64,000 nt of DNA, from contig NC_086097.1 of assembly GCF_963921235.1 (NCBI RefSeq), positions 29,948,001-30,012,000 of the forward strand, in the 5' to 3' direction. Positions 59,937-64,000 of this stretch are shown here, one piece after another. The notes beneath the pieces are model-generated. The model saw only the letters and a program-made list of their open reading frames with translations, did not search any database and was not told the DNA's origin. Source of the stretch: Mobula hypostoma (Eukaryota). Position 1 is the first letter of the stretch. Each line of letters opens with the position of its first letter. The position numbers were made by a program, and so were the translations under genes.

Positions 59937-61648
59937 GCAACATACATCAAAGTTGCTGGTGAACGCAGCAGGCCAAGCAGCATCTATAGGAAGAGGCGCA
60001 GTCGACGTTTCGGGCCGAGACCCTTCGTCAGGACTAACTGAAGGAAGAGTGAGTAAGGGATTTGAAAGTTGGAGGGGGAGGGGGAGATCCAAAATGATAG
60101 GAGAAGACAGGAGGGGGAGGGATAGAGCCGAGAGCTGGACAGGTGATAGGCAAAAGGGGATACGAGAGGATCATAGGACAGGAGGTCCGGGAAGAAAGAC
60201 AAGGGGGGGGGTGACCCAGAGGATGGGCAAGAGGTATATTCAGAGGGACAGAGGGAGAAAAAGGAGAGTGAGAGAAAGAATGTGTGCATAAAAATGAGTA
60301 ACAGATGGGGTACGAGGGGGAGGTGGGGCCTTAGCGGAAGTTAGAGAAGTCGATGTTCATGCCATCAGGTTGGAGGCTACCCAGACGGAATATAAGGTGT
60401 TGTTCCTCCAACCTGAGTGTGGCTTCATCTTTACAGTAGAGGAAGCCGTGGATAGACATGTCAGAATGCGAATGGGATGTGGAATTAAAATGTGTGGCCA
60501 CTGGGAGATCCTGCTTTCTCTGGCAGACAGAGCGTAGATGTTCAGCAAAGCGGTCTCCCAGTCTGCGTCGGGTCTCACCAATATATAAAAGGCCACATCG
60601 GGAGCACCGGACACAGTATATCACCCCAGTCGACTCACAGGTGAAGTGTTGCCTCACCTGGAAGGACTGTTTGGGGCCCTGAATGGTGGTAAGGGAGGAA
60701 GTGTAAGGGCATGTGTAGCACTTGTTCCGCTTACACCGATAGGTGCCAGGAGGGAGATCAGTGGGGAGGGATGGGGGGGACGAATGGACAAGGGAGTTGT
60801 GTAGGGAGCAATCCCTGCGGAATGCAGGGGGGGGGCGGGGAGGGAAAGATGTGCTTAGTGGTGGAATCCCGTTGGAGGTGGCGGAAGTTACGGAGAATAA
60901 TATTTTGGACCCGGAGGCTGGTGGGGTGGTAGGTGAGGACCAGGGGAACCCTATTCCTAGTGGGGTGGTGGGAGGATGGAGTGAGAGCAGATGTACGTGA
61001 AATGGGGGAGATGCGTTTAAGAGCAGAGTTGATAGTGGAGGAAGGGAAGCCCCTTTCTTTAAAAAATGAAGACATCTCCCTCGTCCTAGAATGAAAAGCT
61101 TCATCCTGAGAGCAGATGCGGCGGAGACGGAGGAATTGCGAGAAGGGGATGGCGTTTTTGCAAGAGACAGGGTGAGAAGAGGAATAGTCCAGATAGCTGT
61201 GAGAGTCAGTAGGCTTATAGTAGATATCAGTGGATAAGCTGTCTCCAGAGACAGAGACAGAAAGATCTAGAAAGGGGAGGGAGGTGTCGGAAATGGACCA
61301 GGTAAACTTGAGGGCAGGGTGAAAGTTGGAGGCAAAGTTAATAAAGTCAACGAGTTCTGCATGTGTGCAGGAAGCAGCGCCAATGCAGTCATCGATGTAG
61401 CGAAGGAAAAGTGGGGGACAGATACCAGAATAGGCACGGAACATAGATTGTTCCACAAAGCCAACAAAAAGGCAGGCATAGCTAGGACCCATACGGGTGC
61501 CCATAGCTACACCTTTAGTTTGGAGGAAGTGGGGGGAGCCAAAGGAGAAATTATTAAGAGTAAGGACTAATTCCGCTAGATGGAGCAGAGTGGTGGTAGA
61601 GGGGAACTGATTAGGTCTGGAATCCAAAAAGAAGCGTAGAGCTTTGAG
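59937..61648 (-). mobile_element. Young 5'-truncated Neptune-type Penelope-like element
   Basis: RT (GVAMGTRMGPSYA, RYIDD), Cys-rich linker CKRNKCYTC, GIY-YIG GVIYC...LYIGETRRRLGDRFAEH. One frameshift in a homopolymer at about 60827-60844; stop at 60331. CATTTCAA is duplicated at 59929-59936 and 61649-61656. Confidence 0.95.
60000..60035 (-). ncRNA. Minimal type I hammerhead ribozyme in the PLE 3' region
   Basis: AGUC-CUGACGA-A-GGG UCUCGG CCC-GAAA-CGUC-GACU: intact core, stem I AGUC/GACU, stem II GGG/CCC, palindromic loopless stem III ACGU. Confidence 0.8.
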
Positions 61649-63120
61649 CATTTCAATGCCGGCAAGCCCAGCCTTCGTGCTGGCCAGCTTTTCTGAGCCC
61701 AACGTGGACTGGCGAGCCAGTTGTGGAAAATGTGGGCTTGATGAGGTTTGGGAATTTGCCCAGCAGGCAGAGGGCACAGGGTAACGACCCAAAAGTCCTT
61801 TTGCATGCACAAGCCGGCAGTTCTGCCGAACAAAGGTCTAGCATCGTTAGCCAAGACAAGGTCCTCGTGTGGTGTGGTCCATCGAAGCAGAGTGTGGCCC
61901 GTAGAGTCCTATAATTTGGATCCCGCCGCCGCTGGCGGCCTCCAGCAAGCTCTTTGCCTCATAATAATGGCAGCACCCTGACTTGAGCACCGGAAGCATT
62001 ACACCCTGATAGGGTGTCCGTAATGAATAGACGACGACCCCGGTAACTTGAACCCACGCTGTTCACAGACCTCTGATATCCCGATGCGCTGGCACTGTCG
62101 AGGCTGCAATGAGGTCGGTCCTCGGCGTTCGTGCCGAAGAGTCCACGGTTAAAAACACAAGACCGGCGTGGTCTGGTTCGGAGCCGCATTCTTGAGTAAG
62201 ATGGACGCTCTGCCGTCAGGGCTTACTGAGGCCTGGCTGACCTGCTGTCTTTCAAGGGCCATGAGAGCGAGGGCTACGCGAACTTGATTAGGCATTTCTT
62301 CTTCTTCTTGTGTTGTTTTATGGCGGTTGGCAAACCAGCTTTAAGGTGCATTACCGCCACCTGCTAGACTGGAGTGTGGATCGTTGGATAAACAGGAGAA
62401 GGGAAAAGAATTGCATTCCCTATATTCCGTATAATAAACCCGAGTCTTTCAGATACTTCATGATACGGATCTGTATTTCTCTTGAATTCCCACTTAAAAT
62501 ATCTTCTATACCCACAGCAGTTTTTTTGTTTATCTTAAGCGCTCCTATCATCTTCACTCTTTCTCGTTGGTACTTCTTACATTTTATCAATACCTGTTCA
62601 ACTGTTTCTGGTTGATTACACTGTTCACACAACCCAGTTGGATGTTTCCTTATTTTATGTAATGTGTAATTAAGACTTGTGTGTCCAATTCTTAAACGAT
62701 TGATGATCACTTCTGTCTTTCTATATCCACTTGACAATCTTTTGTATCTGACTTGCCTCTGTATTTTGTACAGTTGCCTCCCTGTTTCACTCTCATCCCA
62801 GTGCTTCTGCCATGTCTCCTCAATACTGCACGTGTTTTTATAATGCTTTTGACTTCTCCTTTGCTTGGAGGGATCTGGACCTCTATTATAGACAATTTGA
62901 GTGATTGTCTGGCTATATTATCCACCTTTTCATTATCCTCCACTCCACAATGAGCAGGAACCCAAAGAAAGCTTACTTCTACCCCATTTTTGGTCAGTGT
63001 ATATAACTTGCATAAAATCTCCAATAAAATATCCTGTCTACTTTCTGATTTTCTTGATTTTATCGAGGTTAATGCAGATAAACTGTCTGAACAGATTGCA
63101 GCCTTTTTGATATTATTTTC

Positions 63121-63964
63121 AAAGTTGTAACAGAAGCAGTTGAGCAGAGAGTACTGCAGCACAACTTCTCTCGTGCCCCATGCTGCACAGAACATGGCAT
63201 ATAATTTGTGAAAGAAGGCTCCAAGTCAAGGGTGTACAGCACAGGCTCACGATCAAGCATACTTTCTTCAGTCAATGACTGGTGTGTCAAGACCGACCTG
63301 GACGGGAAAGGCAGTTTCCCGGAGCAATTAGCTTTCACCACATTGCGTCCAGATATAATCGTATGGTCTGACACCAGTAAAGAAGTGGTTATTGATGAAC
63401 TCACAGTCCCCTGGGAAGACAACATCGATGAAGCCCATGAGCACAAGTTAACCAAGTATGCAGAATTAAAATCAGAGTGCAGAGACAGAGGGTGGAAGGT
63501 CTCATGCTATCCATTCGAAGTAGGCTGCCGTGGGTTTATTGCGTTCACTCTCCAGAAGTGGCTGCGTGACCTTGGCTTCACTAGAAGAGAGATCAAGTCA
63601 ACCAGCAGGGCTGTAGCTAAGGCAGCAGAAAAAGGATCAGCATGGGTGTGGACCAAGTATGTCCAGAGGGGCAGATAGTCAGACAGTATATACATATCTT
63701 GCAAACCCTTCAGTAGTTGCATAGACACCTGAAGAGCAGACTATCTGTTGGATGGAAGTGACCAACAACTCTGATAGAGGCAGATGCCAAGTTTTTAAGC
63801 TCACCAGTGGGAGGTGGTGCTTTAGCACTGCTAGCCCACCACCTCGAGGGAGTCTTGATCATAAGTGGGCCAAAACTCCTGAAGACCGGTGGCAGATCAA
63901 CTGATGATCCCACTGGTGATAGCACAGGACAGTTAACATCTTAGTCCAAGTGTATTTTTAACTA
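63121..63964 (+). mobile_element. R2-Hero clade non-LTR retrotransposon 3' fragment (restriction-like endonuclease)
   Basis: TTLRPDIIVWS...ELTVPWE...KLTKY...FEVGCRGF PD-(D/E)xK domain ending at 63678, followed by a 3' UTR. Confidence 0.88.
63839..63914 (+). ncRNA. Non-circularly permuted hammerhead-ribozyme-like motif (degenerate copy)
   Basis: All three hammerhead helices and CUGAUGA are present but the strands run in reversed order. GAAA reads AAAA in this copy. Confidence 0.65.
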
Positions 63965-64000
63965 TTCTTCTATCCAAGATAATGCACACAAAATTGCCAT

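What the first reader, a model, noticed from the sequence alone, without database searches (positions are those of the whole stretch)
63839..63914. Hammerhead ribozyme with strands in non-circularly permuted order in the 3' UTR of a Hero retrotransposon
Seen in sequence, three strands: Z = GGAG-UC^-UUGAUC (63849-63860); Y = AGUGGG-CC-AAAA-CUCC (63864-63879); X = GAUCAA-CUGAUGA-U-CCCACU (63895-63914). Helix I (UUGAUC/GAUCAA, 6 bp), helix II (CCCACU/AGUGGG, 6 bp) and helix III (GGAGU/ACUCC) are perfectly complementary. An extra helix CCACC/GGUGG (63839-63843 with 63888-63892) extends helix III. Established: hammerhead types I-III are the circular orders XYZ, YZX and ZXY. The order here is ZYX, so folding needs a pseudoknotted or multimeric topology that standard hammerhead models would miss. 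I recall that such rearranged hammerheads have been reported, but I cannot check whether this family or host is described. Inference: Hero elements use the motif to process their RNA 3' end. This copy is probably dead, because CGAAA became CAAAA (CpG-decay pattern) and G10.1 is absent.
Basis: partly seen in the sequence, partly recalled or inferred. Interest (0 to 1): 0.9.

Follow-up and report, generated by a model that had tools for sequence, protein, structure and literature searches.

The report
Rearranged hammerhead ribozyme in retrotransposon tails
This is a decayed copy of a self-cutting RNA motif, a hammerhead ribozyme whose parts lie in an unusual order, at the tail of a jumping gene; intact versions are conserved in the tails of many related jumping genes, a layout and setting I did not find described.

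Summary
Two of its helices (I, III) and its "extra helix" are real. They covary across 58 distinct relatives: 91.7% of cells paired against 56.7% in shuffles, 0 of 500 shuffles as high.

Its helix II (CCCACU/AGUGGG) is an accident of this copy. The real helix II pairs 63867-71 with an upstream strand, 63833-37, which supplies G10.1. A further 12-bp helix (63801-12 with 63908-19) closes the motif.

The RNA is therefore a circular permutation of the published "type-SGC" hammerhead (Eckert 2023), opened between A9 and G10.1. Rfam 15 does not detect it.

All catalytic-core letters are kept. Only N7 varies, and H17 is never G.

The motif follows the ORF in 43 of 46 informative contigs of an R2-like LINE clade, and in two families of this genome (at least 787 and 2,276 copies).

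The window copy is 5'-truncated and carries G10.1>A and G12>A, so it is probably dead.

Cleavage itself is untested and its role is unknown. No genomic copies begin at the predicted cut. Head-to-tail arrays are common, so I favour transcript processing.

This is a new variant of a known kind, of high interest.

The parts
63205..63678 (+). Remnant of the element's ORF: the C-terminal restriction-like endonuclease part of a 5'-truncated copy.
   Evidence: Open frame of 157 aa. The same frame is 563 aa long in the longer copy L031. A profile of its relatives hits solved R2 proteins best.
63679..63963 (+). 3' UTR of the element; the element ends at about 63963.
   Evidence: 30 of 30 genomic copies align up to about here and then diverge.
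63801..63812 (+). Helix X, 5' strand (TCACCAGTGGGA). It pairs with 63908-63919.
   Evidence: 12 bp in the main family. Best run has a median of 9.5 bp in 38 relatives, against 5 when partners are swapped. 87-89% of cells are paired, with all 8 pairs changing on both sides.
63813..63830 (+). Small hairpin h (stem 63816-20 with 63825-29, loop UUUA).
   Evidence: A hairpin of 13-24 nt fills this slot in relatives. Its loop holds the palindrome UGAUCA in 10 of 24 and GGCC in 4 of 24.
63833..63837 (+). Helix II, 5' strand, positions 10.1-10.5 (AGCCC here, GGCCC in the family). G10.1 is mutated to A in this copy.
   Evidence: It pairs with 63867-71. At least 5 bp in 34 of 38 relatives. 88.3% of cells are paired, and this helix was not part of the model's structure. 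G10.1 is G in 53 of 55. Position 63833 is G in 29 of 30 copies and in all 4 runs.
63839..63844 (+).
   Evidence: It pairs with 63887-92. 94.2% of cells are paired and 5 of 5 pairs change on both sides. It holds the position of the stem I/II 'interaction' helix of published type-SGC hammerheads.
63848..63853 (+). Helix III, 5' strand (GGGAGT), ending in U16.1.
   Evidence: 96.9% of cells are paired. The U16.1-A15.1 pair is kept in 55 of 55.
63854..63855 (+). Predicted cleavage site, C63854 (H17) | U63855.
   Evidence: By analogy with hammerheads. H17 is C in 21, A in 20, U in 15 and G in 0 relatives. Cleavage was not tested.
63855..63860 (+). Helix I, 5' strand (TTGATC).
   Evidence: It pairs with 63895-900. 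92.3% of cells are paired and 6 of 6 pairs change on both sides; this helix was not in the model's structure.
63867..63875 (+). Helix II, 3' strand (GGGCC, 11.5-11.1), followed by G12 A13 A14 A15.1. It reads AAAA here and GAAA in the family.
   Evidence: G12 is G in 54 of 56; A13, A14 and A15.1 are A in 56 of 56. Position 63872 is G in 25 of 30 copies.
63875..63880 (+). Helix III, 3' strand (ACTCCT).
63887..63892 (+). P4, 3'-side strand (CGGTGG here, AGGTGG in the family).
   Evidence: Position 63887 is A in 29 of 30 copies.
63895..63907 (+). Helix I, 3' strand (GATCAA), followed by the core C3-A9 (CTGATGA).
   Evidence: C3 53 of 56, U4 56 of 56, G5 56 of 56, A6 55 of 56, N7 free, G8 54 of 55, A9 55 of 55.
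63908..63919 (+). Helix X, 3' strand (TCCCACTGGTGA), directly after A9.
63876..63956 (+). Tail module, shared with a second, non-coding repeat family.
   Evidence: 84-90% identity to the 3' ends of L062-L065. What lies upstream in those loci is unrelated and carries no S or G block.

Best explanation
The finding is a mutated, 5'-truncated copy of a real, conserved hammerhead-class ribozyme motif. The motif fills about 120 nt (63801-63919) near the 3' end of an R2-group non-LTR retrotransposon that carries a restriction-like endonuclease ('Hero-like').

The layout, 5' to 3', is: helix X strand, small hairpin, 10.x strand of helix II, P4 strand, helix III strand, U16.1, H17 (the cut follows it), helix I strand, short linker, 11.x strand of helix II, GAAA, helix III strand, loop, P4 strand, helix I strand, CUGAnGA, helix X strand.

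This is the published type-SGC arrangement, circularly permuted so that the RNA opens between A9 and G10.1. There an extra closing helix (X) and a hairpin are inserted.

Shown here: five covarying helices, and the full hammerhead pattern of core conservation.

Inferred: the intact family sequence cuts itself between C63854 and U63855 by ordinary hammerhead chemistry, giving a 2',3'-cyclic phosphate and a 5'-OH. I put this at about 70-75%. The window copy, with G10.1>A and G12>A, does not cut.

Inferred more weakly (about 40%): the ribozyme trims read-through or multimeric transcripts of the frequent head-to-tail arrays into unit-length RNAs. That would be similar to hammerheads in Penelope-like elements and retrozymes, and to the HDV-like ribozyme of R2.
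For: Structure. On 58 distinct matches, 29 pairs are 91.7% paired against 56.7% in shuffles (0 of 500 as high). The covariation score is 0.670 against 0.165, and slid controls give 39-43%. Helices I and II were not in the model that made the alignment, yet are 92.3% and 88.3% paired. An independent MAFFT alignment of 23 gives 90.9% against 63.8%.

Core. CUGAnGA, GAA, A15.1-U16.1 and G10.1-C/U11.1 are near-invariant. Only N7 is free (U33, C11, A10, G2). H17 is never G (0 of 56).

Placement. 43 of 46 contigs that hold the ORF end plus at least 250 nt carry the motif 13-669 nt after the ORF match. All 62 matches lie on the ORF strand, and the 64-kb window holds one match only.

Null rate. The descriptor hits simulated sequence 1.4-2 times per Mb.

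Second family. A family in this genome only 44% identical in protein has the same layout with different helix sequences.

Match to the published type SGC. It shares the S-G-C order, a short linker between helix I and helix II, and a P4 helix flanking the C block.

Arrays. 42 of 77 5'-complete main-family copies follow a 3' tail directly. 21 of them have the whole ribozyme upstream. 7 metagenome contigs have the motif upstream of the ORF.
Against: No cleavage was observed. The only runs available were assembled contigs, which cannot show RNA ends.

No genomic copies start at the predicted cut: 0 against 787 in the main family and at most 5 against 2,276 in the second family. Among 8 tandem junctions read directly, none starts there.

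Cutting its own 3' UTR would detach the last 109 nt that a retrotransposition template needs.

A non-coding partner family spreads with only the last 81 nt or so and no complete ribozyme. The ribozyme is therefore not needed for reverse transcription itself.

No hammerhead with a break or insertion between A9 and G10.1 has been tested, as far as I read.

The strict descriptor and the model were tuned on the same kind of sequence, so the pairing of helices I and III in the 38 descriptor hits is partly by selection.
Confidence: 0.7

Rival explanations
1. The motif is a conserved hammerhead-shaped fold that does not cut, or is kept from cutting. It would be a pseudoknotted 3' UTR platform that the element's reverse transcriptase binds to start target-primed reverse transcription, as R2 proteins bind their structured 3' UTRs.
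For: It lies where R2-type elements hold their protein-binding 3' UTR. The last 81 nt or so, which hold half of the motif, are enough for a non-coding partner family to spread. No copies begin at the cut. In run X9 the 3' 220 nt of the UTR differ far less than the 60 nt before them.
Against: The conservation is that of a catalytic hammerhead, not just a fold: every core letter is fixed, N7 is free and H17 is never G. The partner family lacks the S and G blocks, so the complete fold is not what the enzyme needs.
Confidence: 0.17
2. The ribozyme is active, but as a dimer or in trans. Two element RNAs would pair through palindromic hairpin loops, linking cleavage or template switching to RNA pairing.
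For: The loop of hairpin h holds a six-letter palindrome, UGAUCA, in 10 of 24 relatives and GGCC in 4 of 24. Small hammerheads of Penelope-like elements act as dimers (title cited in PMC10085705; the paper was not read). Head-to-tail copies are common.
Against: All five helices can form within one molecule and covary as such. The main family's hairpin loop (UUUA) is not palindromic.
Confidence: 0.08
3. One reading: a type-SGC-like hammerhead with helix II = CCCACU/AGUGGG and no G10.1, which the element uses to make its RNA 3' end.
For: The strings pair perfectly in this copy.
Against: That pairing depends on a copy-specific C>T at 63866. It has a median of 2 consecutive pairs in 38 relatives. 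The same letters belong to the 12-bp helix X. The cut lies 109 nt inside the element.
Confidence: 0.03
4. The likeness to a hammerhead is chance within a structured UTR.
For: My rough estimate before any family data was that loose matches of this kind should arise by chance in a scan of many windows. There is no Rfam hit.
Against: The motif recurs with covarying helices in 56 of 67 related contigs and always on the ORF strand. The null rate is 1.4-2 per Mb.
Confidence: 0.01

Closest known systems
Type-SGC hammerhead ribozymes: HRIMA-1 and the 'type-SGC variants' (Eckert, Friedrich, Weinberg and Weinberg, NAR 2023, PMC10085705). I read sections 13, 14, 15 and 18 and parts 18-19 of the supplement.
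   Same: The blocks lie in the order S, G, C. A short linker runs from helix I to helix II. A helix (P4) is formed by the letters just 5' of the helix I strand and just 3' of the 10.x strand. The hammerhead core is complete. The cut lies near the 5' side of the motif. The fold has several pseudoknots.
   Different: In the published RNAs the C block is one piece: 2.x, CUGAnGA, an optional bulged U, then 10.x. Here the 10.x strand and its P4 strand lie at the far 5' end, so the RNA opens between A9 and G10.1. A closing helix X and a hairpin are added there. The published examples come from metatranscriptomes of probable circular RNA agents; these lie in DNA copies of animal-type LINEs.
Hammerheads of Penelope-like elements and of retrozymes (Cervera and de la Pena 2014, PMC4209133; 2020, PMC7229834; bioRxiv 10.64898/2026.07.22.740005). 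Seen as search listings and abstracts only.
   Same: A hammerhead in the terminal repeat region of a retroelement that often lies in head-to-tail arrays. It is thought to process multimeric transcripts.
   Different: Those are classical type I (often minimal) hammerheads in elements with GIY-YIG endonucleases or in non-autonomous elements. This one is a rearranged, five-helix form in an autonomous LINE with a restriction-like endonuclease.
HDV-like ribozymes at the 5' end of R2 and other LINEs, and twister variants at the 5' end of Perere-3 (PMC3774820, listing only; PMC8501958, abstract read).
   Same: A self-cleaving ribozyme built into a non-LTR element. The cut lies at the ribozyme's 5' side, so most of the ribozyme stays on the downstream product.
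   Different: They belong to other ribozyme classes, and they sit at the element's 5' end, where target-site duplications and 5' ends mark the cut. Here the motif is in the 3' UTR and no copies start at the cut.
Discontinuous hammerhead in the 3' UTRs of mammalian Clec2 genes
   Same: A hammerhead whose parts are spread along a 3' UTR.
   Different: That one is a split type III form in a host gene. It is not a non-circular permutation and is not part of a transposon.

Membership tests
Hammerhead ribozyme (class) | Core C3 U4 G5 A6 N7 G8 A9, with only N7 free | tested here: met
   53-56 of 55-56 at each fixed position; N7 is U33, C11, A10, G2. The window copy has CTGATGA.
Hammerhead ribozyme (class) | G12 A13 A14 followed by the A15.1-U16.1 pair | tested here: met
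   G12 in 54 of 56; A13, A14 and A15.1 in 56 of 56; the UA pair in 55 of 55. The window copy itself has A at G12 (63872), so this copy fails.
Hammerhead ribozyme (class) | Cleavage-site nucleotide H17 is not G | tested here: met
   C21, A20, U15, G0.
Hammerhead ribozyme (class) | G10.1-C11.1 pair closing helix II next to the core | tested here: met
   GC in 45 and GU in 6 of 53, with G10.1 on an upstream strand. The window copy has A at 63833.
Hammerhead ribozyme (class) | Helices I, II and III supported by covariation | tested here: met
   92.3%, 88.3% and 96.9% of cells paired; 6 of 6, 4 of 5 and 4 of 5 pairs change on both sides.
Hammerhead ribozyme (class) | Site-specific self-cleavage after H17 | not testable with these tools
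   The runs on hand are contigs only. No bench test was possible.
Hammerhead types I, II and III (Rfam models) | Circular strand order CGS, GSC or SCG, and a match to the Rfam models | tested here: not met
   The order is S-G-C. There is no hammerhead hit in the window at the gathering score or at E<=10, nor in 20 loci with intact motifs at E<=1.
Type-SGC hammerhead (Eckert 2023) | Blocks in the order S, G, C, with a short linker from helix I to helix II | tested here: met
   38 of 38 descriptor hits. The site-to-GAAA distance is 14-20 nt.
Type-SGC hammerhead (Eckert 2023) | P4 ('interaction') helix flanking the helix I strand and the 10.x strand | tested here: met
   94.2% of cells paired and 5 of 5 pairs change on both sides. 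The positions are as in the published alignments.
Type-SGC hammerhead (Eckert 2023) | Unbroken C block: the 10.x strand directly (0-1 nt) after CUGAnGA | tested here: not met
   The letters after A9 pair with the far 5' strand as helix X. Pairing of those letters with the 11.x strand has a median of 2 consecutive pairs. It is therefore a permuted relative, not a member in the strict sense.
R2-group (restriction-like endonuclease) non-LTR retrotransposons | Reverse transcriptase followed by a CCHC motif and a C-terminal restriction-like endonuclease | tested here: met
   The L031 ORF has RT pieces, CAACGEKGTLQHILSAC and an RPD...E...K tail. Relatives carry Pfam RVT_1 and zf-RVT. Profile A1 hits solved R2 proteins at E 2.8e-35 to 1.7e-18, against LINE-1 ORF2 at about 1e-12.
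Hero clade | Placement of the RT domain among named Hero reference elements | not testable with these tools
   No reference Hero sequences were on hand. Relatives in amphioxus, sea urchin, teleosts and bivalves fit what I recall of the Hero clade's distribution.

The most novel reading that the evidence does not exclude
These autonomous LINEs behave like self-encoded 'retrozymes'. Transcripts of head-to-tail arrays would be cut by the ribozyme into unit-length RNAs. The two ends of such an RNA re-form the whole five-helix ribozyme (about 30 bp) and are re-ligated into a circular, ORF-bearing RNA. Reverse transcription of that circle would regenerate the precise tail-to-head junctions seen in the genome. 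This would be the first protein-coding non-LTR retrotransposon to use a circular RNA intermediate, made by a hammerhead topology that no model in Rfam detects.
Probability: 0.15. Interest if true: 0.95.

Novelty: new variant of a known kind. Interest (0 to 1): 0.85.

Why it matters
Non-circular permutations of a ribozyme were first shown in 2023, in uncultured RNA agents. This work places a further permutation in thousands of DNA copies of an autonomous retrotransposon clade found from bivalves to vertebrates. That permutation breaks the 'C block', which had been assumed to be unbreakable.

It shows that the A9/G10.1 junction of the hammerhead can be opened and can carry an extra helical domain. 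It also shows that current family models miss a widespread ribozyme. And it adds hammerheads to the ribozymes linked with R2-type elements, at the 3' rather than the 5' end.

It gives a directly testable RNA of about 120 nt, and a handle on how these elements form and express head-to-tail arrays.

Tried and rejected
1. Chance look-alike or relic. I dropped this reading when a second family and 67 metagenome contigs showed the same layout. The 'competitor' turned out to be helix X of the motif.

2. RNA evidence. The look-up of sequencing runs gave only Logan contigs. The laid contigs gave letters of relatives, but no RNA starts or ends. Contig ends at 63832/34 and 63861 sit beside sites that vary between copies, and I do not read them as RNA ends.

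3. Copies starting at the cut. The patterns need three non-matching letters before the site. They would therefore miss a start joined to another copy's ...CTC end. The 8 junctions read directly start at about 63869, 63871, 63882, 63893 (three of them) and 63903, and one is complete. None starts at 63855.

4. A known ribozyme at the element's 5' end. None was found at E<=10.

5. Read by eye, there were 3-4 bp only. The real P4 partner lies upstream.

6. Model R1 had helix X one column out of register. This was my slip. It was not used; R2 replaced it.

7. PDB search with the single protein: no hit. The profile was needed.

8. Earlier notes of this scan: nothing on this sequence.

9. Papers. Searches for hammerhead with Hero, with restriction-like endonuclease, and with non-LTR/tandem, and for 'type-SGC' and 'Hero clade', found no description of this motif. 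Subscription journals and Repbase notes were not searchable.
Full report
WHAT IS IN THE WINDOW. They lie in the 285-nt 3' UTR (63679 to about 63963) of a 5'-truncated retrotransposon copy. Only the last 157 codons of its ORF remain (63205-63678).

Rfam 15 reports nothing in the window at the gathering scores. It reports no hammerhead in 63600-64000 even at E<=10.

The window lies in a 3.48-Gb assembly of 200 contigs. A DNA search found 1,671 first-look candidates for this UTR; the 40 that were scored are 95-100% identical.

THE FAMILY SEQUENCE. I aligned 30 copies.
- Position 63866 is C in 18 of 30.
- Positions 63833 and 63887 differ from 29 of 30 copies.

Contigs of four public runs from coded organisms A-D show the same four differences from the window copy. 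A genome-wide pattern count gives 787 copies carrying GTC + TTGATCATAAGYRGGCYRAAACTCCTGAAGAC.

At this stage I leaned towards a chance look-alike, for three reasons:
- The minimum-free-energy fold is dominated by an 11-bp helix, 63802-12 with 63908-18.
- There is no G after CUGAUGA(U).
- An abundant second repeat shares only 63876-63956.

WHAT IS KNOWN. The order site block, GAAA block, CUGAnGA block is the 'type SGC' non-circular permutation of Eckert et al. 2023 (PMC10085705; sections 13, 14, 15 and 18 read). That type was shown to cleave in vitro. It has a short linker from helix I to helix II and a fourth helix that brings stems I and II together.

The paper's Stockholm alignments (supplement parts 18-19) show an unbroken C block: helix I strand, CUGAnGA, an optional bulged U, G10.1..., one letter, then the P4 strand. 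All rows shown have CGAAA.

The main text names no retrotransposon host.

THE TURN. I took the 563-aa C-terminal ORF of a longer copy (L031).
- Its relatives are 64-74% identical in amphioxus, a sea urchin and unnamed ENA and JGI records, and 41-50% identical in many teleosts and bivalves.
- Searching this genome with a teleost relative (P0028, 44% identical to the main family) found a second family, 'H2', 66-69% identical to P0028.
- The 3' UTR of H2 has the same S-G-C layout with entirely different helix I letters (UGAUGUU/AACAUCA), GUA at the site, CUGAAGA and CGAAA.

A protein alignment (A1) then fetched 67 metagenome contigs encoding relatives of 36-50% identity, plus one at 73%.

A strict descriptor gave 43 hits on the ORF strand. 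Its terms were: UH site; at least 5 consecutive pairs for helix I; at least 3 for helix III; GAAA 9-45 nt after the site; CUGAnGA 8-90 nt after GAAA.
- Of the 43, 37 lie after the ORF match, 4 lie about 2 kb upstream of it, and 2 lie inside ORFs and were set aside.
- There were 0 hits on the opposite strand (227 kb each strand).
- The same descriptor hits simulated sequence 7-10 times per 5 Mb, and the window itself 0 times, because its G12 is mutated.

THE CORRECTED STRUCTURE. I laid out 38 distinct instances block by block. This showed three things.
1. The letters before GAAA (main family GGGCC, 63867-71) do not pair with the letters after CUGAnGA. They pair with a strand upstream of the site block (GGCCC, 63833-37). 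That strand supplies G10.1, opposite C11.1.
2. Directly 3' of that strand lies CCACC(U) (63839-44). It pairs with (A)GGUGG (63887-92), just 5' of the helix I strand.
3. The letters straight after A9 (63908-19) pair with a strand at the far 5' end (63801-12). This is helix X. A small hairpin (63813-30) lies between it and helix II.

The RNA is thus the type-SGC arrangement opened between A9 and G10.1.

Tests that do not depend on the descriptor:
- helix II has at least 5 bp in 34 of 38, against 24% of partner-swapped controls;
- P4 has a median of 7 bp, against 5;
- helix X has a median of 9.5 bp, against 5;

On a MAFFT alignment of 23 instances, helices I, II and III are 90.9% paired against 63.8% in shuffles, 0 of 500 as high (A2). 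I had chosen these 23 of the 38 for having X of at least 8 bp, II of at least 4 and P4 of at least 5, so they are selected.

A covariance model holding only the nested helices X, P4 and III (R2) gave 62 matches at E<=1 over the window and 73 loci (311 kb, both strands).
- All matches are on the ORF strand.
- The window has one match, 63804-63918 (62.7 bits).
- 56 of the 67 contigs have a match.
- The four loci of the tail-sharing repeat have none.

On the resulting alignment (58 distinct rows), 29 pairs are 91.7% paired against 56.7% in shuffles (0 of 500). The covariation score is 0.670 against 0.165, and slid controls give 39-43%. Helices I and II were not in the model, and so were not fitted; they are 92.3% and 88.3% paired. 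The tool warns that relatedness inflates the shuffle test; the slid controls are the fairer comparison.

Of 46 contigs that hold the ORF end and at least 250 nt beyond it, 43 carry the motif 13-669 nt after the protein match. L085, L086 and L136 do not.

THE CORE.
- C3 53 of 56; U4 56 of 56; G5 56 of 56; A6 55 of 56.
- N7: U33, C11, A10, G2.
- G8 54 of 55; A9 55 of 55.
- G12 54 of 56; A13, A14, A15.1 and U16.1 56 of 56.
- H17: C21, A20, U15, G0.
- G10.1 53 of 55; position 11.1 is C in 50 and U in 6.

This is the conservation pattern of a catalytic hammerhead. The exceptions are decayed copies: C3>U in L084, L122 and L092, and G12>A in L143 and the window.

Two further conserved G-A pairs of letters lie in the loops between P4 and helix III. 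I suspect they form a sharp turn that lets P4 fold back to stems I and II. That is inference.

THE WINDOW COPY. It is 5'-truncated. It has G10.1>A (63833), G12>A (63872), 63866 C>T and 63887 A>C. It is very probably inactive.

THE HOST ELEMENT. The longer copy has an N-terminal zinc-finger-like motif, RT pieces, a CCHC motif and a restriction-like endonuclease tail. Relatives carry Pfam RVT_1 and zf-RVT. The profile of A1 hits solved R2 proteins best, at 2.8e-35 to 1.7e-18, against LINE-1 ORF2 at about 1e-12. The single sequence gave no PDB hit. So the element belongs to the R2 group. 'Hero' fits the host range as I recall it, but was not tested.

WHAT IT DOES. Cleavage was not observed, because only contigs were on hand.

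Genomic footprints of cleavage are absent:
- 0 copies have a foreign triplet before the site, against 787 with GTC.
- In H2 the count is 5 against 2,276, and two of the five look like one-letter deletions.
- These patterns would miss a start joined to another copy's ...CTC end.
- Of 8 tandem junctions read directly, none starts at 63855.

A roughly 900-nt non-coding repeat carries only the last 81 nt or so of the tail (84-90% identical) and no site or GAAA block. A copy lies in the window on the minus strand, 59061-58202. The whole ribozyme is therefore not needed for target-primed reverse transcription.

Head-to-tail arrays, by contrast, are the rule:
- 77 copies hold the main family's 5' UTR start.
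- 42 of them are directly preceded by another copy's 3' end, with a uniform junction.
- 21 have the helix X strand, and so a complete ribozyme, at the right distance upstream. 21 have the C block, and 13 are in both lists.
- H2 copies occur 3.6-3.7 kb apart (list).
- 7 contigs carry the motif about 1.85-2.0 kb upstream of the ORF part.

No known ribozyme lies at the element's own 5' end.

After a cut, the two pieces would stay held by about 30 bp (helices X, II, P4 and III).

My preferred role, at about 40%, is trimming of read-through or multimeric array transcripts to unit length, possibly with re-ligation. This would be similar to hammerheads of Penelope-like elements and retrozymes. The main rival is a protein-binding fold whose cutting is incidental or suppressed.

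NOVELTY. I found no paper linking a hammerhead to Hero or to LINEs with a restriction-like endonuclease, and none describing a hammerhead opened between A9 and G10.1 (searches; PMC13725137 read in passages only). Subscription journals, Repbase entries and bioRxiv supplements could not be searched. Rfam 15 detects none of 20 intact examples.

VERDICT. The follow-up turns one decayed copy into a widespread, well-supported new hammerhead topology in an animal LINE clade. Catalysis and biological role remain to be shown.

Noticed in passing
window 59061-58202 (minus strand); L062-L065: A non-coding repeat of about 900 nt ends in the same 81-nt tail as the LINE (84-90% identical from 63876 on), but is unrelated upstream. 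It is probably a non-autonomous partner moved by the LINE's enzyme. In runs X1 and X3 the depth over the tail is 20-50 times that of the rest of the UTR.
   Followed up: partly
L031 4082-4109; 42 genomic places listed: More than half of the 5'-complete main-family copies (42 of 77) are directly preceded by the 3' end of another copy, with a uniform junction (...AACTC|TTTTGTTCTGG...). The upstream pieces range from under 30 nt to at least 160 nt. This fits end-to-end template jumping, or copying of multimeric or circular RNA.
   Followed up: partly
Hairpin h of relatives, e.g. L073:1399-1516 (minus strand) and L101:2343-2457: The loop of the small hairpin between helix X and helix II holds a palindrome, UGAUCA in 10 of 24 and GGCC in 4 of 24. 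This could allow loop-loop pairing of two RNAs. The main family's loop (UUUA) does not.
   Followed up: no
Alignment A3, columns 67/72 and 125/126 (window about 63846-47 and 63883-86): Conserved G and A letters lie in both strands of the internal loop between P4 and helix III. They may form a sharp-turn motif made of G-A pairs.
   Followed up: no
L031:5988-7676 and the proteins: The ORF of this family is 64-74% identical to proteins of amphioxus, a sea urchin and unnamed records, but only 41-45% identical to most teleost relatives. Such closeness to proteins from distant animals may point to horizontal transfer.
   Followed up: no
window 60331-61837 (minus strand): Remnant of a Penelope-like element: an RT frame, then a GIY-YIG-type endonuclease frame (...GLLYIGETRRRLGDRFAEH...). 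No classical hammerhead was reported near it by Rfam.
   Followed up: no
window 62420-63225 (minus strand): Fragment of another LINE, with an RNase H-like frame and a C-terminal zinc-knuckle-like frame. It abuts the truncated copy studied here.
   Followed up: no
G000 genome-wide: The second Hero-like family (H2) is more abundant than the one in the window: 2,276 exact pattern matches against 787. Its ribozyme is closer to the published type SGC around the core (CGAAA, with G10.1 upstream).
   Followed up: partly
L085, L086, L136: Three related contigs with 284-2,691 nt beyond the ORF show no match to the model. They may carry a more divergent form of the motif, or none.
   Followed up: no
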